A DNA stretch of 64,000 nucleotides from a virus. The stretch lies in the IMG/VR virus record IMGVR_UViG_3300050016_000047, positions 32,443 to 96,442 of that record. One strand, written 5' to 3'. Below are positions 2,765 through 23,516 of this stretch, in pieces; the first letter of the stretch is position 1; each line of letters begins with the position of its first letter. The notes under the pieces are model-generated. The model ran no database searches, had not been told where the DNA came from, and worked only from the letters and a program-made list of their open reading frames with translations. Both the position numbers and the translations under genes were made by a program.

Positions 2765-3301
2765 ATGGCAAATCCTAGTAATATTAATCGTATTTTTGGA
2801 AACCAGATCGCGGTCCTAACAAACGCTATAACCACTGTAGAAACAGCATTCAGTTTCGCTGCTGGGTATAACCCCGGTTCCGGCGTGGCTGTTTGTGCTA
2901 TGCCTGCGAATGCTCTTTACGACGGAGTTCCCTTTACCGTTCGAGCAACAGGTAAGTATACAACGGGTACCACATCAAACGTAACTCCGTGTCTATATGT
3001 AGGCACATCCCTAACCCTAAGCTCAGATTCAGCTATCTCAGCCATGACTACGTTCTCTGCCGTCACCGCGAGCGGTAACTGGATTATAGAAGCTCACGGC
3101 GTATGGGATTCCGTATCCACCAAGTATAACGGATGGTATAACGGTATTGTCGGCACGACAGTCAAAACCGGCACAACCTTTACTAACGCTCAGACAGGAA
3201 TCGCCGCAATCACGGGTCTAAGCTTCCTAGTCTCGTTCACGTTCTCAAGCGGAAACGCCGCGAATACTGCAACCCTAACCGAACTCTCACTAGAAGCATA
3301 G
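2765..3301 (+). CDS. putative virion structural protein (paralog of 27971-28639)
   Basis: Ser/Thr/Ala-rich, strong A-rich RBS, followed by a hairpin. Confidence 0.65.
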   Translation: MANPSNINRIFGNQIAVLTNAITTVETAFSFAAGYNPGSGVAVCAMPANALYDGVPFTVRATGKYTTGTTSNVTPCLYVGTSLTLSSDSAISAMTTFSAVTASGNWIIEAHGVWDSVSTKYNGWYNGIVGTTVKTGTTFTNAQTGIAAITGLSFLVSFTFSSGNAANTATLTELSLEA

Positions 3302-3313
3302 GTCAACATCCGA

Positions 3314-3345
3314 GGGGAGCACCTTCAGATTTTGAGATGCTCCCT
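3314..3345 (+). terminator. stem-loop after gene, possible terminator
   Basis: GGGGAGCA...TGCTCCCT inverted repeat; weak U-tract. Confidence 0.4.
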
Positions 3346-3480
3346 AACGGTACCTATTATGACTAAAGATAAAGTCAAACCCGAATCAAACCGCCGATTA
3401 GGTAGCCACTATAAAAGTAAGAAGCTAAAGATTCGCCGATTAACCCAAACTGAATGGGATAAGAACAATCCCAAAGACAA

Positions 3481-3942
3481 ATGATACTCCTTCGTTTTAT
3501 ATCCAGCCGTTCTTTTGTATCAAAAGCTATTCAAGTTAGAACAGATGGACAAGTTTCGCACGTAGAATACCTAGATACTTCTACGATGATTACTTTCGGT
3601 GCTCGGTTACAAGGTGGCGTGACGCATCGCCCTTATAACTATATTAAACCTGATTGGGAAGAACTATACACTTTCGAAGGTATCGAAGCTTCATATAAGG
3701 AAGCTTTATTTTTTAACGGTCGCAAGTACGATTGGAAAGATATAGCATCGCTCGCAGTAGGTTGGCATCCCGGTGGATACGACCCGGAAGAAGCCGTGTG
3801 TTCTTGTTTGGCCGGATACAGTAATCGTTTGGCATGGGCTAACGGAACCGCCCCAGCGTTACTTAATCCAAACCTTCCTACGTGGGAAATGACTCCACAA
3901 ATTTTATATGGTGCGGTTACTAAACAAGTTGTTGTATATTAA
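3481..3942 (+). CDS. permuted papain-like (NlpC/P60 YiiX-type) amidase
   Basis: SHVE His precedes YDW and CSCLA Cys, the permuted catalytic order. Confidence 0.6.
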   Translation: MILLRFISSRSFVSKAIQVRTDGQVSHVEYLDTSTMITFGARLQGGVTHRPYNYIKPDWEELYTFEGIEASYKEALFFNGRKYDWKDIASLAVGWHPGGYDPEEAVCSCLAGYSNRLAWANGTAPALLNPNLPTWEMTPQILYGAVTKQVVVY

Positions 3943-3953
3943 AAAGAGGATAC

Positions 3954-4547
3954 ATGAAAATTTTACCTAAAGCACTTCTGGCCTGCGTACTTAGTTTATC
4001 ACTAGTTACGTATGGTTGTTCCACAGCACAATTCTTTACTGTACTGGATCAAGTAGCTCCGGCGGTTCTTAACGTTCTTCAGATTGTAACCATATTTACA
4101 GGCCATCCGGCTAACACCGCTCTTTCTACTAAAGTTTCTGCGGACGTTGCCGCAACGGAAAAACTATATTCTGACTATACGTCTGCTTCCTCGGCGGCTC
4201 AGCCCGGCATTAAGAACGATATTAATGCGGCGTTCGTTGTTCTTAATAGCGACCTAGGAGTTATATTCTCTGCCGCACAGGTTAGCGATCATAACACACA
4301 GCTTAAAATTGCCGCCTTAATTGGACTTATTCAAACAAGCGTGAGTATAGCAGAAGCGATAATTCCTTCTCCCACACCAGCCGCAACTCTGTCAAGTAAG
4401 TTAGACGCAGATACTTTAGTTGCATCCTATAATAAAATCCTAACCGCTCCTACAGGCAACAAAGCGGTGGATAAGTATACTCGTACCCACCAACTTCATA
4501 TCCACAGTAAGCTAGCTCGTGTAGCTACTGCCGGGATTCTTAAATAA
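3954..4547 (+). CDS. lipoprotein
   Basis: MKILPKALLACVLSLSLVTYGC lipobox-like signal. Confidence 0.65.
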   Translation: MKILPKALLACVLSLSLVTYGCSTAQFFTVLDQVAPAVLNVLQIVTIFTGHPANTALSTKVSADVAATEKLYSDYTSASSAAQPGIKNDINAAFVVLNSDLGVIFSAAQVSDHNTQLKIAALIGLIQTSVSIAEAIIPSPTPAATLSSKLDADTLVASYNKILTAPTGNKAVDKYTRTHQLHIHSKLARVATAGILK

Positions 4548-18152: not shown

Positions 18153-20721
18153 ATGAGTTACTCCCCGGCTTCGATTTTGACCTCTGGCTCGCTACCGAAC
18201 CTAGTTGCTATTCACTATGAACGGTCAAGCATTCCAAACTTGAAAGCTCAAACTCCTTTCATGTCAATGACGAAGCAAAAACCGTTGCCGCTGCGAAGTG
18301 GTAACCAAATCCAGTTTTATACTTATGCTCTCTTGGCTGCTAATACCAACCAAGCCGCAGAAGGTACCGTAGGAAGTCCTATCTCCGAAAGCACCACAAA
18401 AATCGTGGCGACTATCGGTCAGTACGCGGACTTCATCAACTCTTCAGACCTAGCTATGGACGTAGCGATTGACGATCCGTCGTTGCTCCAGAACCTATCA
18501 GACGAGTTGAACTACCGCCTAGCCCTAACACTAAACTCACTAGTACAGCTAACCGCTGATAGCGCGACAGGTGTTGACGGCAGCGTAAACATCCAACTAG
18601 CAGCGGGTTCATACCTAACTGCAAATAACATCCGTACTGCGGCCCAGCAACTAGCTGGCGTGAACGCCCGTCCTCTAACTAAGGATGGCTACATGGGCGG
18701 AATCATCCATAAAATAGCAGCATAATTAGGGGTGGATGATATAAACGACGACTAATGCCCTACGTCGTTCACGATAAACTTCAAAATGTCGTGAAACTTA
18801 AATTCAGCTATATCGGTGGAACTCTCAACAGAGACAATACCGAGGGAAGATACCATTGGAACATTCATTAACAGATTTGGCGTATGCAGCAGGAATTATA
18901 GACGGTGAAGGTAGTATACTAATACTTCGCGGAGTCGGCTATAATAGAAAAGGCGAACCATATAAAAGATACGGTTGCCGAGTATCTGTTAGCATGACAG
19001 ACAAACTTGTTCCTGAATGGCTTCATAAAAATTTCGGCGGTTCTTTTTATTTTCGCCAAATGAAAGGTGCTTGGAAAGACCAGCACATTTGGATGATAAC
19101 GAATAGAAACGTAAGACTGTTCATCGCGGCTATAAAGCCGTTTCTTAAGACTAAATCTAAACAAGCTGATTTAGTTTTGGAATACCTAGACCATGTTCAA
19201 GAAAATAATCCCGAATATCGGGAATTGATGGTAGGTAGAATGAAAGAATTAAATCGAAAAGGTAAACCCGTAACGACTAATACGCTGAACAATCCGCAAA
19301 ACGGATTGAAGATAGAGTCTGAACTTTTGGGAGACCAAAAGAGCGACCCGATTGTGAAATCGGCGGTAGCAACAGTTTAGCTACAGTGACTTTAAAAAGC
19401 ACTTCCAAAACACCTTGGTTTTGAATGATACCTCCAGCAACGGACTAAGTGATATTCTAAAACGTAACGAGAGCACAGTCGGTAAGCTATTTGCTCCTGT
19501 TTCCAACGAGGATACCATTGAGTTCGCGGGTGTTCGGTTAACAAAAGCTGCTTAAGCCGAATTAAAATCTAACTATATCGGTGAAGACCTTGATTATTTG
19601 CAAAAAGTGCAATCAACCAAAACAACCAAGTGAAATGGATAAAGGCCGAGAAGGTCGGCCAAATCTATCTACTTGTGCAAAGTGTCGCTATAAGAAACAA
19701 GCGGACTGGAAGAGAAATCATCCCAAAGTTCGTCTTGTTAATTTTGCCAAACACCGCGCCAAAGAAAAAGGTTTAGATTGTACAATAACCCACAACGATT
19801 TTGAAATTCCAGAGTTTTGCCCTGCAACCGGCATTAAGTTGGAAATAGGAGTCGGAAAACTACACGATGCTTCTCCAACCCTTGACAGATTTATTCCAGC
19901 GTTAGGTTATGTACCGGGAAATGTAGTTGTTATCTCGTACAAAGCCAATCGAATTAAGAACAACGGAACTGCCAAAGACTTAGAGAATGTAGCAAAGTGG
20001 ATGAAGCAAGTTCAAGAAAATACCGAGGGAAGACTGTCCGCAAAACGGACGGAACCCGTAGAGGCTAATACGTTAGACAGTGCCTTTGAAAAAGATGCAC
20101 TGAAGATAGAGTCCGACCTTACAGGTGACTGTAAGAGAACGTCAGTGGTGACACTGGCGGCAACGGCACATAGATTAGATGTAGTTAACTACTGGCCGTA
20201 ATAACAAAGCTGTTAAGCAGACCACAACCGCTCCAACCGCAACCATCTCCAGCCAGACATACTACAATACGTATATCTTCGCTGACGATGCTATTTTCTC
20301 CGTGTTCTTGGGTAAGAATCCTGAGACTGGCGAGAAGAACTATAAATTAATGATACAAGAAGCGCCAATGTCGGGTTCAGTTTCCGACCCAGCAAGGCAG
20401 ATTGGTGGATGGGTAAGCTATTAATTATAGTAGCTTTGCAGAGTAATCTGCATCGAACACAAGGCTATATCGGTGAAACACTCTTTGAGTCAATACCGAG
20501 GGAAGGCCGCGAAAGCGGAACCCGTAGAGACTACACGCCTTGCTCCTTATTTTAAGGATGATGATATAGTCCGTTCTGCATGGCGACATGCAGAGAGTAG
20601 CAGAAATGACTACTCTCGCTATCAAGCGATAACAATTAAGAATACCCGTTATACGAACACCCTTAGGCCGGGATCAACAATGGTGCTTCGCCGACTGCAA
20701 TCACAAACTTCCAGTTCCTAA
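18153..20721 (+). CDS. major capsid protein (N4-gp56-like), spliced: join(18153..18710,18758..18775,19418..19538,20213..20421,20641..20721)
   Basis: Exons total 987 nt = 328 aa plus stop, in frame, reading ...GGIIH/PYVVHD/VLNDTSS...FAGVR/FKQTTT...GWVSY/NTRY... This restores the IHP..D and GVRF motifs. Every junction follows the U|...G| group I rule. Confidence 0.85.
18711..18757 (+). ncRNA. 47-nt core-less group I-like mini-intron
   Basis: IGS TAGGG|GTGGATGAT (18727-18740) pairs with 5' exon ATCATCCAT (U.G at the splice site) and 3' exon CCCTA; ends in G. Confidence 0.75.
18776..19417 (+). mobile_element. group I intron with LAGLIDADG homing endonuclease
   Basis: IGS TTCAAAAT|GTCGTGAA pairs with both exons; core CTATATCGGTG, AATACCGAGGGAAG, CCCGTAACGACTAATACG, GATAGAGTC; terminal G. 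Confidence 0.9.
18856..19380 (+). CDS. intron-encoded LAGLIDADG endonuclease
   Basis: LAYAAGIIDGEGSI motif; FGG; PFLKTKSKQA. Confidence 0.9.
   Translation: MEHSLTDLAYAAGIIDGEGSILILRGVGYNRKGEPYKRYGCRVSVSMTDKLVPEWLHKNFGGSFYFRQMKGAWKDQHIWMITNRNVRLFIAAIKPFLKTKSKQADLVLEYLDHVQENNPEYRELMVGRMKELNRKGKPVTTNTLNNPQNGLKIESELLGDQKSDPIVKSAVATV
19539..20212 (+). mobile_element. group I intron with HNH-type endonuclease
   Basis: IGS CTGCTTAA|GCCGAA pairs with TTCGGT and TTAAGCAG; same core elements as the preceding intron; terminal G 20212. Confidence 0.9.
19581..20201 (+). CDS. intron-encoded HNH-family endonuclease
   Basis: CxxC zinc finger; CPATG, SPTLDRFIPALGYVPGNV..IS.KAN..K motif. Confidence 0.85.
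   Translation: MKTLIICKKCNQPKQPSEMDKGREGRPNLSTCAKCRYKKQADWKRNHPKVRLVNFAKHRAKEKGLDCTITHNDFEIPEFCPATGIKLEIGVGKLHDASPTLDRFIPALGYVPGNVVVISYKANRIKNNGTAKDLENVAKWMKQVQENTEGRLSAKRTEPVEANTLDSAFEKDALKIESDLTGDCKRTSVVTLAATAHRLDVVNYWP
20422..20640 (+). ncRNA. ORF-less group I intron (219 nt)
   Basis: P1 AAGCTAT/GTAGCTT with U.G; CTATATCGGTGAA, AATACCGAGGGAAG, CCCGTAGAGACTACACG, GATATAGTC; terminal G. Confidence 0.9.
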
Positions 20722-23068: not shown

Positions 23069-23350
23069 ATGCTACCACACTTTGACGGTACTGTTACTCT
23101 TGGTAATCTTCTTGAGCTTATAGGACTTTTGGTATTTGGATTACTTGCTTGGAGAGATATGAATTGGCGAATGAAAATTCAAGAAGAATTTAAAGCAGCG
23201 CAACTTGTAATTAATTTAAAGCGTGATGATCAATTAGTTCAACAGGAAAAAGATCTTAGCCTTGTTCGTGAAGCAATTGTTCAACTTACTGCCATGAATC
23301 AAGGACAAGATCGAAGACTTATACTACTTGAAAATCGCCAATATAGATAG
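23069..23350 (+). CDS. small membrane/coiled-coil protein
   Basis: N-terminal TM segment followed by coiled coil. Confidence 0.55.
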   Translation: MLPHFDGTVTLGNLLELIGLLVFGLLAWRDMNWRMKIQEEFKAAQLVINLKRDDQLVQQEKDLSLVREAIVQLTAMNQGQDRRLILLENRQYR

Positions 23351-23516
23351 AATTCTACCAGAACTGGGATACGTAAAAGGCAACGTGGCTGTTATGTCGT
23401 TTAGAGCAAACTCTCTAAAACGAGACGGATATTTAAAAGAATTTAAGTTATTAGTAAGTTGGTTGGAAGAACAAGAACTTCGCAGGATTGGCTCAGCGGC
23501 GACGGCAGCAGTTTAG
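23328..23516 (+). pseudogene. C-terminal fragment of HNH endonuclease
   Basis: IDRILPELGYVKGNVAVMSFRANSLK aligns with the intron HNH at 19581; N-terminus missing. Confidence 0.75.

What the first reader, a model, noticed from the sequence alone, without database searches (positions are those of the whole stretch)
18702..18795. 47-nt core-less 'guide-only' group I mini-intron in the major capsid gene: candidate non-autonomous intron spliced by a neighbouring ribozyme
Seen in the sequence: the capsid ORF hits a stop at 18725, but removing 18711-18757 joins ...GGIIH to PYVVHD in frame. The 47-nt insert contains TAGGG|GTGGATGAT (18727-18740), the exact complement of the ligated junction ATCATCCAT|CCCTA except for a G opposite the last exon U. 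It ends in G (18757) and has no room for P3-P9. AACGACG (18744-50) pairs with CGTCGTT in the 18-nt exon 2, placing the terminal G and CCCTA in a loop and overlapping the P1 of the next intron. Established: a U.G pair in P1, P10 pairing and omega-G are the substrate determinants of group I splicing, and catalytic cores can act on P1 supplied in trans. Inference: the element kept only the substrate/guide parts and borrows the core of the full intron 18 nt downstream (or another of the three), possibly in an enforced order. Because the capsid gene is essential, the insert must be removed or tolerated.
Basis: partly seen in the sequence, partly recalled or inferred. Interest (0 to 1): 0.93.

Follow-up and report, generated by a model that had tools for sequence, protein, structure and literature searches.

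The report
Core-less mini-intron in phage capsid gene
[quoted passage not shown] It must be removed for the phage to live, and most likely borrows the ribozyme of the complete intron 18 bases downstream.

Summary
The 47 nt at 18711-18757 split the single N4-gp56-type capsid gene. Removing them, plus three ordinary group I introns, gives an intact 328-aa capsid. The insert holds only a P1 helix (9 bp, U.G at the cut), an adjacent 5-bp P10 guide, a 7-bp helix with the 18-nt micro-exon, and a terminal G. It has no core.

Relatives show what it is. Of 68 related genes, 62 are uninterrupted at this site and five carry a full endonuclease-bearing intron there with a homologous guide. One (L024) has a 39-nt mini with a compensatory change. 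I found 10 distinct minis (32-59 nt) at four codon sites in 16 contigs. All have P1+P10+terminal G, and all lie 15-150 nt upstream of a full intron. None occurs in the 29 intron-free genes.

The window and L024 genes are saturated at synonymous sites yet conserved in protein (pN/pS 0.17), also downstream of the mini. The mini is therefore tolerated and under selection.

Borrowing a neighbour's core is inferred; no RNA data were available. This scan had already noted the same kind of element in other phage genomes. The closest published analogues are the 56-81-nt degenerate group I introns of fungal rDNA.

The parts
18153..18710 (+). Capsid exon 1 (186 aa, ends ..GGIIH). Its last 9 nt, 18702-18710 ATCATCCAT, are the 5' strand of P1.
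   Evidence: ORF list; PHROG major head protein; 44% identity to the Tunturi_3 major head protein; 79 relatives.
18711..18757 (+). 47-nt core-less mini-intron.
   Evidence: No RF00028 match covers it.
18727..18731 (+). P10 guide TAGGG, in the P1 loop; pairs with CCCTA 18758-18762.
   Evidence: 5 bp. The analogous guide covaries with exon 2 in the other minis.
18732..18740 (+). Internal guide sequence GTGGATGAT; 9 bp with the end of exon 1; G18732 forms a wobble pair with U18710 at the 5' splice site.
18741..18750 (+). A-rich joiner ATA, then the 5' strand AACGACG of the helix with exon 2 (the 'PM'-type helix).
   Evidence: Compensatory change in L024: ACAACG with CGTTGT.
18751..18757 (+). 3' tail ACTAATG with the terminal (omega) G at 18757.
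   Evidence: All 10 minis end in G.
18758..18775 (+). 18-nt micro-exon PYVVHD. It holds the P10 target (18758-18762), the 3' strand of PM (18763-18769) and the 5' strand of P1 of intron 2 (18768-18775).
18776..19417 (+). Full group I intron 2, the candidate helper. P10 guide CAAAAT at 18782-18787, IGS GTCGTGAA at 18788-18795, homing-endonuclease ORF at 18856-19380, core 3' half at 19207-19341.
   Evidence: Rfam RF00028, 35.3 bits; PHROG endonuclease; boundaries.
19418..19538 (+). Capsid exon 3.
19539..20212 (+). Full group I intron 3 with an HNH-type endonuclease ORF at 19581-20201.
   Evidence: Rfam 31.6 bits; PHROG; boundaries.
20213..20421 (+). Capsid exon 4.
20422..20640 (+). ORF-less group I intron 4 (219 nt).
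   Evidence: Rfam 61.3 bits, above the gathering score; boundaries.
20641..20721 (+). Capsid exon 5 (NTRYTNTL..SSS, then stop).

Best explanation
The 47 nt are a group I intron that has lost its whole catalytic core (P3-P9) by internal deletion. It keeps only the parts a group I ribozyme needs in its substrate. These are the P1 hairpin presenting the 5' splice site with a U.G wobble, a P10 guide in the P1 loop, and a second hairpin formed with exon 2. The loop of that second hairpin presents the terminal G and the first exon-2 bases, so that P10 is a loop-loop contact. The folded module acts as a splint that holds both exon ends together. It is inferred to dock into the empty active site of a complete group I intron on the same pre-mRNA, most likely intron 2, which starts 18 nt downstream. 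That intron's guanosine-binding site would then carry out both transesterifications: external G attacks at U18710|A18711, then the exon-1 3'-OH attacks after G18757. Intron 2 afterwards splices itself using its own P1 (TTCACGAT with GTCGTGAA). Shown: the anatomy, the homology to full introns, the recurrence, the selection, and the need for removal. Inferred: the chemistry, the identity of the helper, and the order of events.
For: (1) Anatomy: P1 of 9 bp with U.G, adjacent P10 of 5 bp and a terminal G; 0 of 20,000 shuffles match. The two-hairpin fold is the predicted minimum-energy structure for the window, L024, L043 and L059.
(2) Origin: L044/45/46, L070 and L076 carry a 748-819-nt endonuclease-bearing intron at exactly IIH|P. 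Its guide is TAGG+GTGGAT(A/G), followed by TAAAAT. The tail of the L024 mini (GATAACAAATTG) matches the tail of the L076 intron (GATTAACAAAATT.).
(3) Recurrence: there are 10 distinct minis of 32-59 nt at capsid codons 32|33, 40|41, 186|187 and 298|299 in 16 contigs. Each has P1 of 7-9 pairs with U.G, P10 of 3-9 bp and a terminal G. Shuffles reach the observed P1 and P10 in 0-142 of 20,000 trials. The guides covary with the exons: ACCCA+GCCTCCGA for GGTGGT|TGGGT, against AACCC+GCCCTCC for GGAGGGT|GGGTT.
(4) Selection: with the minis and introns removed, the window and L024 genes are both 987 nt and open. They have pS 0.86 (saturated) and pN 0.14. Downstream of the mini pN/pS is 0.21. Even so, the mini motif GGGTGGATGA(T)ATAAAC(G/A)ACGA is kept, and its one G/A difference is compensated in exon 2.
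(5) Essentiality: there is one capsid gene in the 96-kb record.
(6) Helper: the only three group I cores in the record lie in this gene. Every mini has its nearest full intron downstream, at 15-150 nt (Fisher combined p about 0.004-0.008). None of the 29 intron-free genes has a mini. Full introns occur without minis (P0076; L023 and L069).
(7) Feasibility, from papers: group I ribozymes excise an internal segment of another RNA (trans-excision-splicing, PMC2532722). They work in three pieces (PMC2588497). Tandem group I introns cross-react (PMC10136302).
Against: No RNA evidence of any kind was available for this element. Nothing computed here shows that a P1 whose guide is not covalently joined to the core can dock well enough in vivo. 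The helper is 150 nt away for the L059-L062 minis, so adjacency is not strict. In the window and L024 the downstream helpers belong to different intron subfamilies (642 nt with an endonuclease gene, against 204 nt without an ORF). This argues against a co-adapted pair, although the core's contacts with P1 do not depend on sequence. The helix with exon 2 is not statistically distinct for the minis at site 298|299. Earlier notes of this scan (unchecked by me) say that RNA assemblies still carried a related 42-nt mini. L043, one of the mini-bearing contigs, also has an unexplained 10-nt frame-breaking insert, so not every such gene need be functional.
Confidence: 0.6

Rival explanations
1. The same core-less intron and the same chemistry, but the catalyst is not specifically the downstream neighbour. 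Any folded group I core would serve: intron 3 or 4 of the same transcript, or free excised intron RNA accumulating in the infected cell, acting as a true enzyme in trans.
For: The core's contacts with P1 are sequence-independent (established knowledge). The helpers downstream of the window and L024 minis are of different subfamilies. The L059-L062 minis lie 150 nt from the next intron. Ribozyme reactions in trans are documented.
Against: The nearest full intron is downstream in all 10 minis, and closer than random positions would give. Trans action should not care about side or distance.
Confidence: 0.15
2. The mini is an autonomous minimal ribozyme, as claimed for the 67-nt PaSSU intron of Phialophora. 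It would splice itself, perhaps helped by flanking exon structure, without any full intron.
For: [quoted passage not shown] That is the same layout as here, and in vitro splicing was reported for them (PMC3160393).
Against: There is no P7-like helix or other conserved element beyond P1, P10 and the exon-2 helix in the 10 minis. The 32-nt L043 mini has no bases left over to build a guanosine site. Minis never occur in intron-free genes.
Confidence: 0.07
3. The insert is not removed from the RNA. Ribosomes bypass it (as in T4 gene 60 or mitochondrial byp elements), or translation stops at TAA 18723 and restarts at ATG 18755, giving a two-piece capsid.
For: There is a stop codon soon after the break (five codons after His186 in the window, directly after it in L024). 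A hairpin sits at the take-off site. ATG 18755 abuts exon 2.
Against: No matched take-off and landing codons in any of the 10 minis: CAT/ATG, CAT/TTG, GCT/AAG, ACT/TTG, GGT/CCG and so on. The ATG is not conserved (L024 TTG, L043 AAG) and has no Shine-Dalgarno spacing. Bypassing does not explain U.G at the break, the terminal G, or a guide that covaries with both exon ends. A split at four different places in an HK97-fold capsid is implausible.
Confidence: 0.05
4. The insert is a dead remnant. The capsid gene of this contig is broken (a defective genome or a passenger in a mixed population), or the insert is an assembly artefact.
For: The record is a metagenome assembly, not an isolate. L043 carries an additional unexplained 10-nt frame-breaking insert.
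Against: Two assemblies agree. Minis are present in 16 contigs from many samples, several of 60-109 kb. Exons downstream of the mini stay open and under purifying selection, while synonymous sites between two mini-bearing genes are saturated. P1, P10 and the terminal G are kept in all.
Confidence: 0.05
5. The two hairpins are recognised by a protein endonuclease and ligase pair (an RtcB- or T4 Rnl-type repair pathway), not by a ribozyme.
For: Both splice sites are presented at defined places in hairpin structures.
Against: The conserved features are exactly the group I determinants (U.G, terminal G, P10). The element descends from a group I intron. No such pathway for mRNA is known in phages (my knowledge).
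Confidence: 0.03

Closest known systems
Small 'degenerate' group I introns of fungal nuclear SSU rDNA (Phialophora PaSSU 63-75 nt; Arthonia, Porpidia; 56-81 nt) - PMC3160393
   Same: [quoted passage not shown] Derived from full introns at the same site by deletion. Must be spliced because the host gene is essential. The authors suspected help from other RNA: in vitro splicing needed about 300 nt of extra exon and ITS1.
   Different: The fungal introns are in rRNA of eukaryotes, at one main site with a single origin. A P7 is proposed for them and self-splicing is claimed; PaSSU ends in U. The phage minis are smaller (32-59 nt), have no P7 candidate and sit in a protein-coding phage gene. They arose at four or more sites, always end in G, and always lie just upstream of a complete group I intron that offers an obvious catalyst.
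Canonical self-splicing phage group I introns (Rfam RF00028; T4 td, nrdB and nrdD; the three introns of Staphylococcus phage Twort orf142)
   Same: P1 with U.G at the 5' splice site, P10, a terminal G, insertion in a conserved essential gene, and descent from endonuclease-bearing mobile introns. The three neighbours in this gene are such introns.
   Different: There is no P3-P9 core and no guanosine-binding site, so the mini cannot be a ribozyme by the known architecture. There is no Rfam match.
Engineered trans reactions of group I ribozymes: trans-excision-splicing (PMC2532722), three-piece systems (PMC2588497), tandem-intron exon skipping (PMC10136302)
   Same: A group I core removes a segment that is not its own, or uses splice sites supplied on other pieces or by a neighbouring intron.
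   Different: These are laboratory constructs, and the guide sits on the ribozyme. Here the guide sits on the excised segment and the arrangement is natural and recurrent.
Non-autonomous organellar introns: Euglena plastid group III introns and degenerate group II introns that need trans-acting RNA or protein (my knowledge)
   Same: The logic is the same: an intron stripped of catalytic domains survives because catalysis is supplied from elsewhere.
   Different: A different intron class and chemistry (branching or spliceosome-like). No such case is established for group I.
Programmed translational bypassing (T4 gene 60, 50-nt gap)
   Same: A short non-coding gap containing a stop codon in an essential phage gene, with a hairpin at its start.
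   Different: No matched take-off and landing codons. The features that are conserved are splice-site determinants, not bypass signals.

Membership tests
Group I intron (RF00028) | P1 helix between the 5' exon end and an internal guide, with U.G at the 5' splice site | tested here: met
   9 bp ATCATCCAT with GTGGATGAT; U18710 pairs with G18732.
Group I intron (RF00028) | Terminal (omega) G at the 3' splice site, and P10 between the guide and the 3' exon | tested here: met
   G18757; TAGGG with CCCTA, 5 bp, directly 5' of the IGS.
Group I intron (RF00028) | Catalytic core P3-P9 with a guanosine-binding site in P7 | tested here: not met
   Only 17 nt remain after the IGS, and they form the exon-2 helix and the tail. 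There is no cmscan hit over 18711-18757 even at E <= 1.
Group I intron (RF00028) | Self-splicing with guanosine and Mg2+ | not testable with these tools
   Needs in vitro transcription and splicing.
Group I intron (RF00028) | Descent from a full group I intron (homology) | tested here: met
   The guide and joiner, and the tail of the L024 mini, match the full introns at the same site in L044, L070 and L076.
Degenerate mini group I introns (PaSSU type) | [quoted passage not shown] | tested here: met
   definition from PMC3160393.
Degenerate mini group I introns (PaSSU type) | A retained P7-like helix | tested here: not met
   No further helix is predicted or conserved in the window, L024 or L043 minis.
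Degenerate mini group I introns (PaSSU type) | Monophyletic clade in fungal SSU rDNA | tested here: not met
   This is a phage capsid mRNA, with minis at four codon sites.
Translational bypass element (gene 60 type) | Matched take-off and landing codons flanking the gap | tested here: not met
   CAT against ATG in the window; no match in any of the 10 minis.
Translational bypass element (gene 60 type) | Stop codon immediately after the take-off codon | tested here: not met
   In the window the stop is the fifth codon after CAT. It follows CAT directly only in L024.

The most novel reading that the evidence does not exclude
Phage genomes harbour a class of non-autonomous group I introns. These are 32-59-nt 'substrate-only' modules (P1, P10 guide, exon-2 helix, terminal G) that arose repeatedly by core deletion. 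They persist because they parasitise the ribozyme of a complete intron transcribed just after them on the same pre-mRNA. One core would thus splice two introns in succession. This would be the first natural case of a group I ribozyme acting on an intron other than itself, a group I counterpart of the path from group II introns to trans-acting splicing machinery.
Probability: 0.55. Interest if true: 0.9.

Novelty: new variant of a known kind. Interest (0 to 1): 0.8.

Why it matters
Group I introns are the textbook case of an intron that carries its own catalyst. A natural, recurrent and selected form that has given up the catalyst and relies on a neighbour would show three things. First, division of labour between 'substrate' introns and 'enzyme' introns can evolve in group I, as is thought to have happened from group II introns to the spliceosome. 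Second, a ribozyme core can serve several substrates in vivo. Third, gene callers and intron finders, which depend on core models, miss such interruptions: the capsid here is annotated as a 190-aa fragment. The system is small enough (about 700 nt) for a direct in vitro test. It may also have a selfish or defensive side. The mini destroys the target site of the endonuclease-bearing intron that occupies the same position in relatives; that idea is speculation and was not tested.

Tried and rejected
- Exact-pattern scans for more copies. TAGGGGTGGATGAT and GGTGGATGA-N0-1-ATAAAC in IMG/VR, and a 21-nt pattern in JGI metagenomes, gave only the window, L024 and chance hits.
- RNA evidence. The look-up of sequencing runs listed one DNA run (peat metagenome, probably the source) and no RNA holder. 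Read laying therefore showed only that a Logan DNA contig reproduces the sequence.
The DNA behind the truncated proteins P0056 (ends GGIIHRAKA), P0081 (ends GGIMH) and P0076 could not be fetched. A viral-contig search with P0056 returned only contigs already held.
- Pfam gave no family for the capsid exon or the intron ORFs; PHROGs did.
- A search of L043 for a guide matching its 10-nt insert found none.
- I looked by eye for a match between the two bases before the terminal G in minis and in their helpers (a P9.0-type signal). It was inconsistent, so I dropped it.
- Literature searches found no description of core-less group I introns in phages, only the fungal rDNA minis and engineered trans systems.
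- Rejected readings: assembly collapse, in-frame insertion (all minis whose length is a multiple of 3 contain stops), bypassing, and restart.
Full report
WHAT IS THERE

The window is the last 64 kb of a 96,442-nt IMG/VR virus record, estimated 93% complete. A public peat-metagenome run holds it.

Positions 18153-20721 hold the record's only major capsid gene. Its relatives are labelled 'N4-gp56 family major capsid protein' and are 327-328 aa long. PHROGs calls exon 1 a major head protein. The nearest isolate is Tunturiibacter phage Tunturi_3, at 44% identity.

The gene is in five exons: 18153-18710, 18758-18775, 19418-19538, 20213-20421 and 20641-20721. Joined, they give a 987-nt open frame of 328 aa.

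Three of the four interruptions are ordinary group I introns:
- 18776-19417, with a LAGLIDADG-like endonuclease ORF.
- 19539-20212, with an HNH-type ORF.
- 20422-20640, without an ORF.

Rfam RF00028 scores them 35.3, 31.6 and 61.3 bits; PHROG names are. Each obeys U|...G and has P1 and P10. They are the only group I cores in the whole record.

THE FINDING

The fourth interruption is 47 nt long, at 18711-18757.
- The ORF stops at TAA 18723-18725.
- TAGGG+GTGGATGAT (18727-18740) is the complement of the ligated junction, with G18732 opposite U18710.
- The insert ends in G18757.
- AACGACG (18744-18750) pairs with CGTCGTT (18763-18769) in the 18-nt micro-exon.

The micro-exon is real. Tunturi_3 reads ..GVIHPFALGDVLSD.., and 62 of the 68 related genes in which this junction could be read run straight through ..IIHP(F/N)VV(H/R)D...

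The pairing is not chance: 0 of 20,000 shuffles reach it. RNAfold's minimum-energy structure is the two hairpins. Seventeen bases remain after the guide, and no covariance-model hit covers the insert. There is no core.

A second assembly of the same run gives the identical sequence. Because similar inserts occur in many other samples (below), an assembly collapse is excluded.

WHERE IT CAME FROM

At exactly this position (after CAT of IIH), L044/45/46, L070 and L076 carry a 748-819-nt endonuclease-bearing group I intron. Its 5' end reads loop, then TAGG+GTGGAT(A/G), then TAAAAT, then P3.

L024 has a second mini of 39 nt. It shares the motif GGGTGGATGA(T)ATAAAC(G/A)ACGA with the window. Its tail GATAACAAATTG matches the tail of the L076 intron.

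The minis are therefore full introns from which everything between the joiner after the guide and the last 15-20 nt has been deleted.

IT IS A RECURRENT KIND OF ELEMENT

I mapped an uninterrupted capsid protein onto 79 related loci and refined the splice sites. The gene family is an intron hot-spot, with 0-7 introns per gene at more than a dozen sites.

There are 10 distinct minis in 16 contigs, the window included:

| Capsid site | Contigs | Length |
|---|---|---|
| KA\|QT (32\|33) | L043 | 32 nt |
| MT\|KQ (40\|41) | L059/60 | 51 nt |
| MT\|KQ (40\|41) | L061/62 | 42 nt |
| IIH\|P (186\|187) | window | 47 nt |
| IIH\|P (186\|187) | L024 | 39 nt |
| GG\|W (298\|299, two phases) | L052/53/54/78 | 46 nt |
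| GG\|W (298\|299, two phases) | L066/67 | 59 nt |
| GG\|W (298\|299, two phases) | L072 | 56 nt |
| GG\|W (298\|299, two phases) | L079 | 53 nt |
| GG\|W (298\|299, two phases) | L065 | 40 nt |

Every one follows an exon U paired to G. Every one has a P10 guide directly 5' of the P1 guide, and every one ends in G.

The guides covary with the exons. ACCCA+GCCTCCGA goes with ..GGTGGT|TGGGT.. and AACCC+GCCCTCC goes with ..GGAGGGT|GGGTT.. In the same way CTGCTT+GGTCATTG goes with ..CAATGACT|AAGCAG...

Most minis also pair a middle segment with exon 2: 7-9 bp at sites 32, 40 and 186. The window and L024 differ there by a compensated G/A and C/T change. For the minis at site 298|299 this helix is not distinguishable from chance.

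L043's full intron at MT|KQ has the same 5' end as the L059 and L061 minis at that site. L050 has a full intron at KA|QT, where L043 has its mini.

IT IS TOLERATED AND UNDER SELECTION

The window and L024 genes differ at essentially every synonymous site (pS 0.86) but have pN 0.14. The part downstream of the mini has pN/pS 0.21, and the codons flanking the mini are equally saturated.

Two conclusions follow. Both lineages have kept a working capsid gene while carrying the mini. And the conserved mini motif is not the trace of a recent transfer. With one capsid gene per genome, the mini must be removed or skipped.

HOW

The retained features (U.G, terminal G, P10) are the determinants of group I chemistry and nothing else, so removal by a group I active site is the economical reading. 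The mini cannot supply that site.

The candidates are the three cores on the same transcript. The positional data point to the next one downstream.
- In all 10 minis the nearest full intron is downstream, at 15-150 nt (18 nt here). This is closer than random positions in the same genes would give (combined p 0.004; 0.008 with one mini per putative origin).
- No mini occurs in the 29 intron-free genes.
- Full introns occur without minis (P0076, L023, L069).

A downstream helper makes sense if splicing is co-transcriptional: the mini is already folded when the core appears, whereas an upstream core would have left. That point is inference.

I picture the mini as a splint. P1, P10 and the exon-2 helix hold exon 1, the start of exon 2 and the terminal G together, and the stack docks where the helper's own P1 would sit.

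The 'enforced order' idea is weak here, because the exon-2 helix and the helper's P1 share only 2 nt. They share 4 nt in L065 and none in L024.

Published work shows the chemistry is feasible: trans-excision-splicing, three-piece ribozymes and cross-reaction of tandem introns.

RIVALS

- Autonomous mini-ribozyme. This is the claim for the fungal PaSSU intron, which has the same P1, P10 and intron-to-3'-exon helix layout plus a P7. It is unlikely here because nothing is left to build a G site (32 nt in L043) and minis never stand alone.
- Bypassing or restart. These fail on codon matching and on conservation of the ATG.
- Dead gene or artefact. These fail on selection and recurrence.
- Any core acting in trans. 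This remains a serious variant of the main explanation.

CAVEATS

No RNA data could be had. Earlier notes of this scan (AI notes that I did not check) describe the same kind of mini-intron in capsid genes of at least 22 other genomes and reach the same reading. Two of them say that RNA assemblies still carried a 42-nt mini. One says all introns of its gene were cut out of the RNA. None of this is evidence here.

NOVELTY

I found no paper describing core-less group I introns in phages. The closest published relatives are the fungal rDNA minis. I therefore class this as a new variant of a known kind. The borrowed-ribozyme mechanism is the part that would be categorically new if it were shown.

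Noticed in passing
L044 4454-5272; L070 4274-5021; L076 6815-7611; L043 about 3016-4003; L068 (capsid site 76): Several full-length, endonuclease-bearing introns of this family have textbook P1 and P10 but end in A, not G. Examples are ..CACAATTA|CCTAATG and ..AACATCA|AAACAA. No G within reach gives an in-frame junction. About 100 other introns of the family obey U|...G. A natural non-G terminal base is very unusual for group I; PaSSU, which ends in U, is a claimed precedent.
   Followed up: partly
L043 4970-4979: A 10-nt frame-breaking insert, TTATAATTTG, lies between capsid codons R294 and Q295, 30 nt upstream of a full intron. It follows an exon T and ends in G. No guide sequence for it was found anywhere in the locus.
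   Followed up: partly
L003-L081 (capsid genes of 79 related IMG/VR contigs): This N4-gp56-type capsid gene family is an extreme intron hot-spot. There are 0-7 group I introns per 984-nt gene at more than a dozen sites. Two intron subfamilies occur: about 200-nt ORF-less introns with the tail GTAACA..G, and 600-1300-nt endonuclease-bearing introns with the tail CCTAAACAC..G.
   Followed up: partly
window 18776-19417 versus L024 4616-4819: The same insertion site (HD|V) holds a 642-nt endonuclease-bearing intron in the window but a 204-nt ORF-less intron of the other subfamily in L024. The upstream mini and the P1 guide GTCGTG are shared. This suggests that cores can be swapped behind a conserved 5' module.
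   Followed up: no
window 19288-19304 and 20034-20048: The palindrome GTCCGCAAAACGGAC was noted genome-wide by first-stage readers. It also forms a hairpin inside intron 3, and a near copy (ATCCGCAAAACGGAT) lies inside intron 2, in the region just 5' of the GATAGAGTC core motif.
   Followed up: no
window 23328-23516: A short ORF (62 aa) resembles the C-terminal part of the intron-3 HNH-type endonuclease (..LGYVKGNVAVMSFRAN..). It may be a free-standing or decayed homing-endonuclease fragment downstream of the large 732-aa gene.
   Followed up: no
proteins P0056, P0081, P0076: Public protein sets contain capsid fragments that end right after GGIIH (P0056, with a 4-codon read-on like the window's; P0081) or after ..HD (P0076, which shows an intron at HD| without an upstream mini).
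   Followed up: partly
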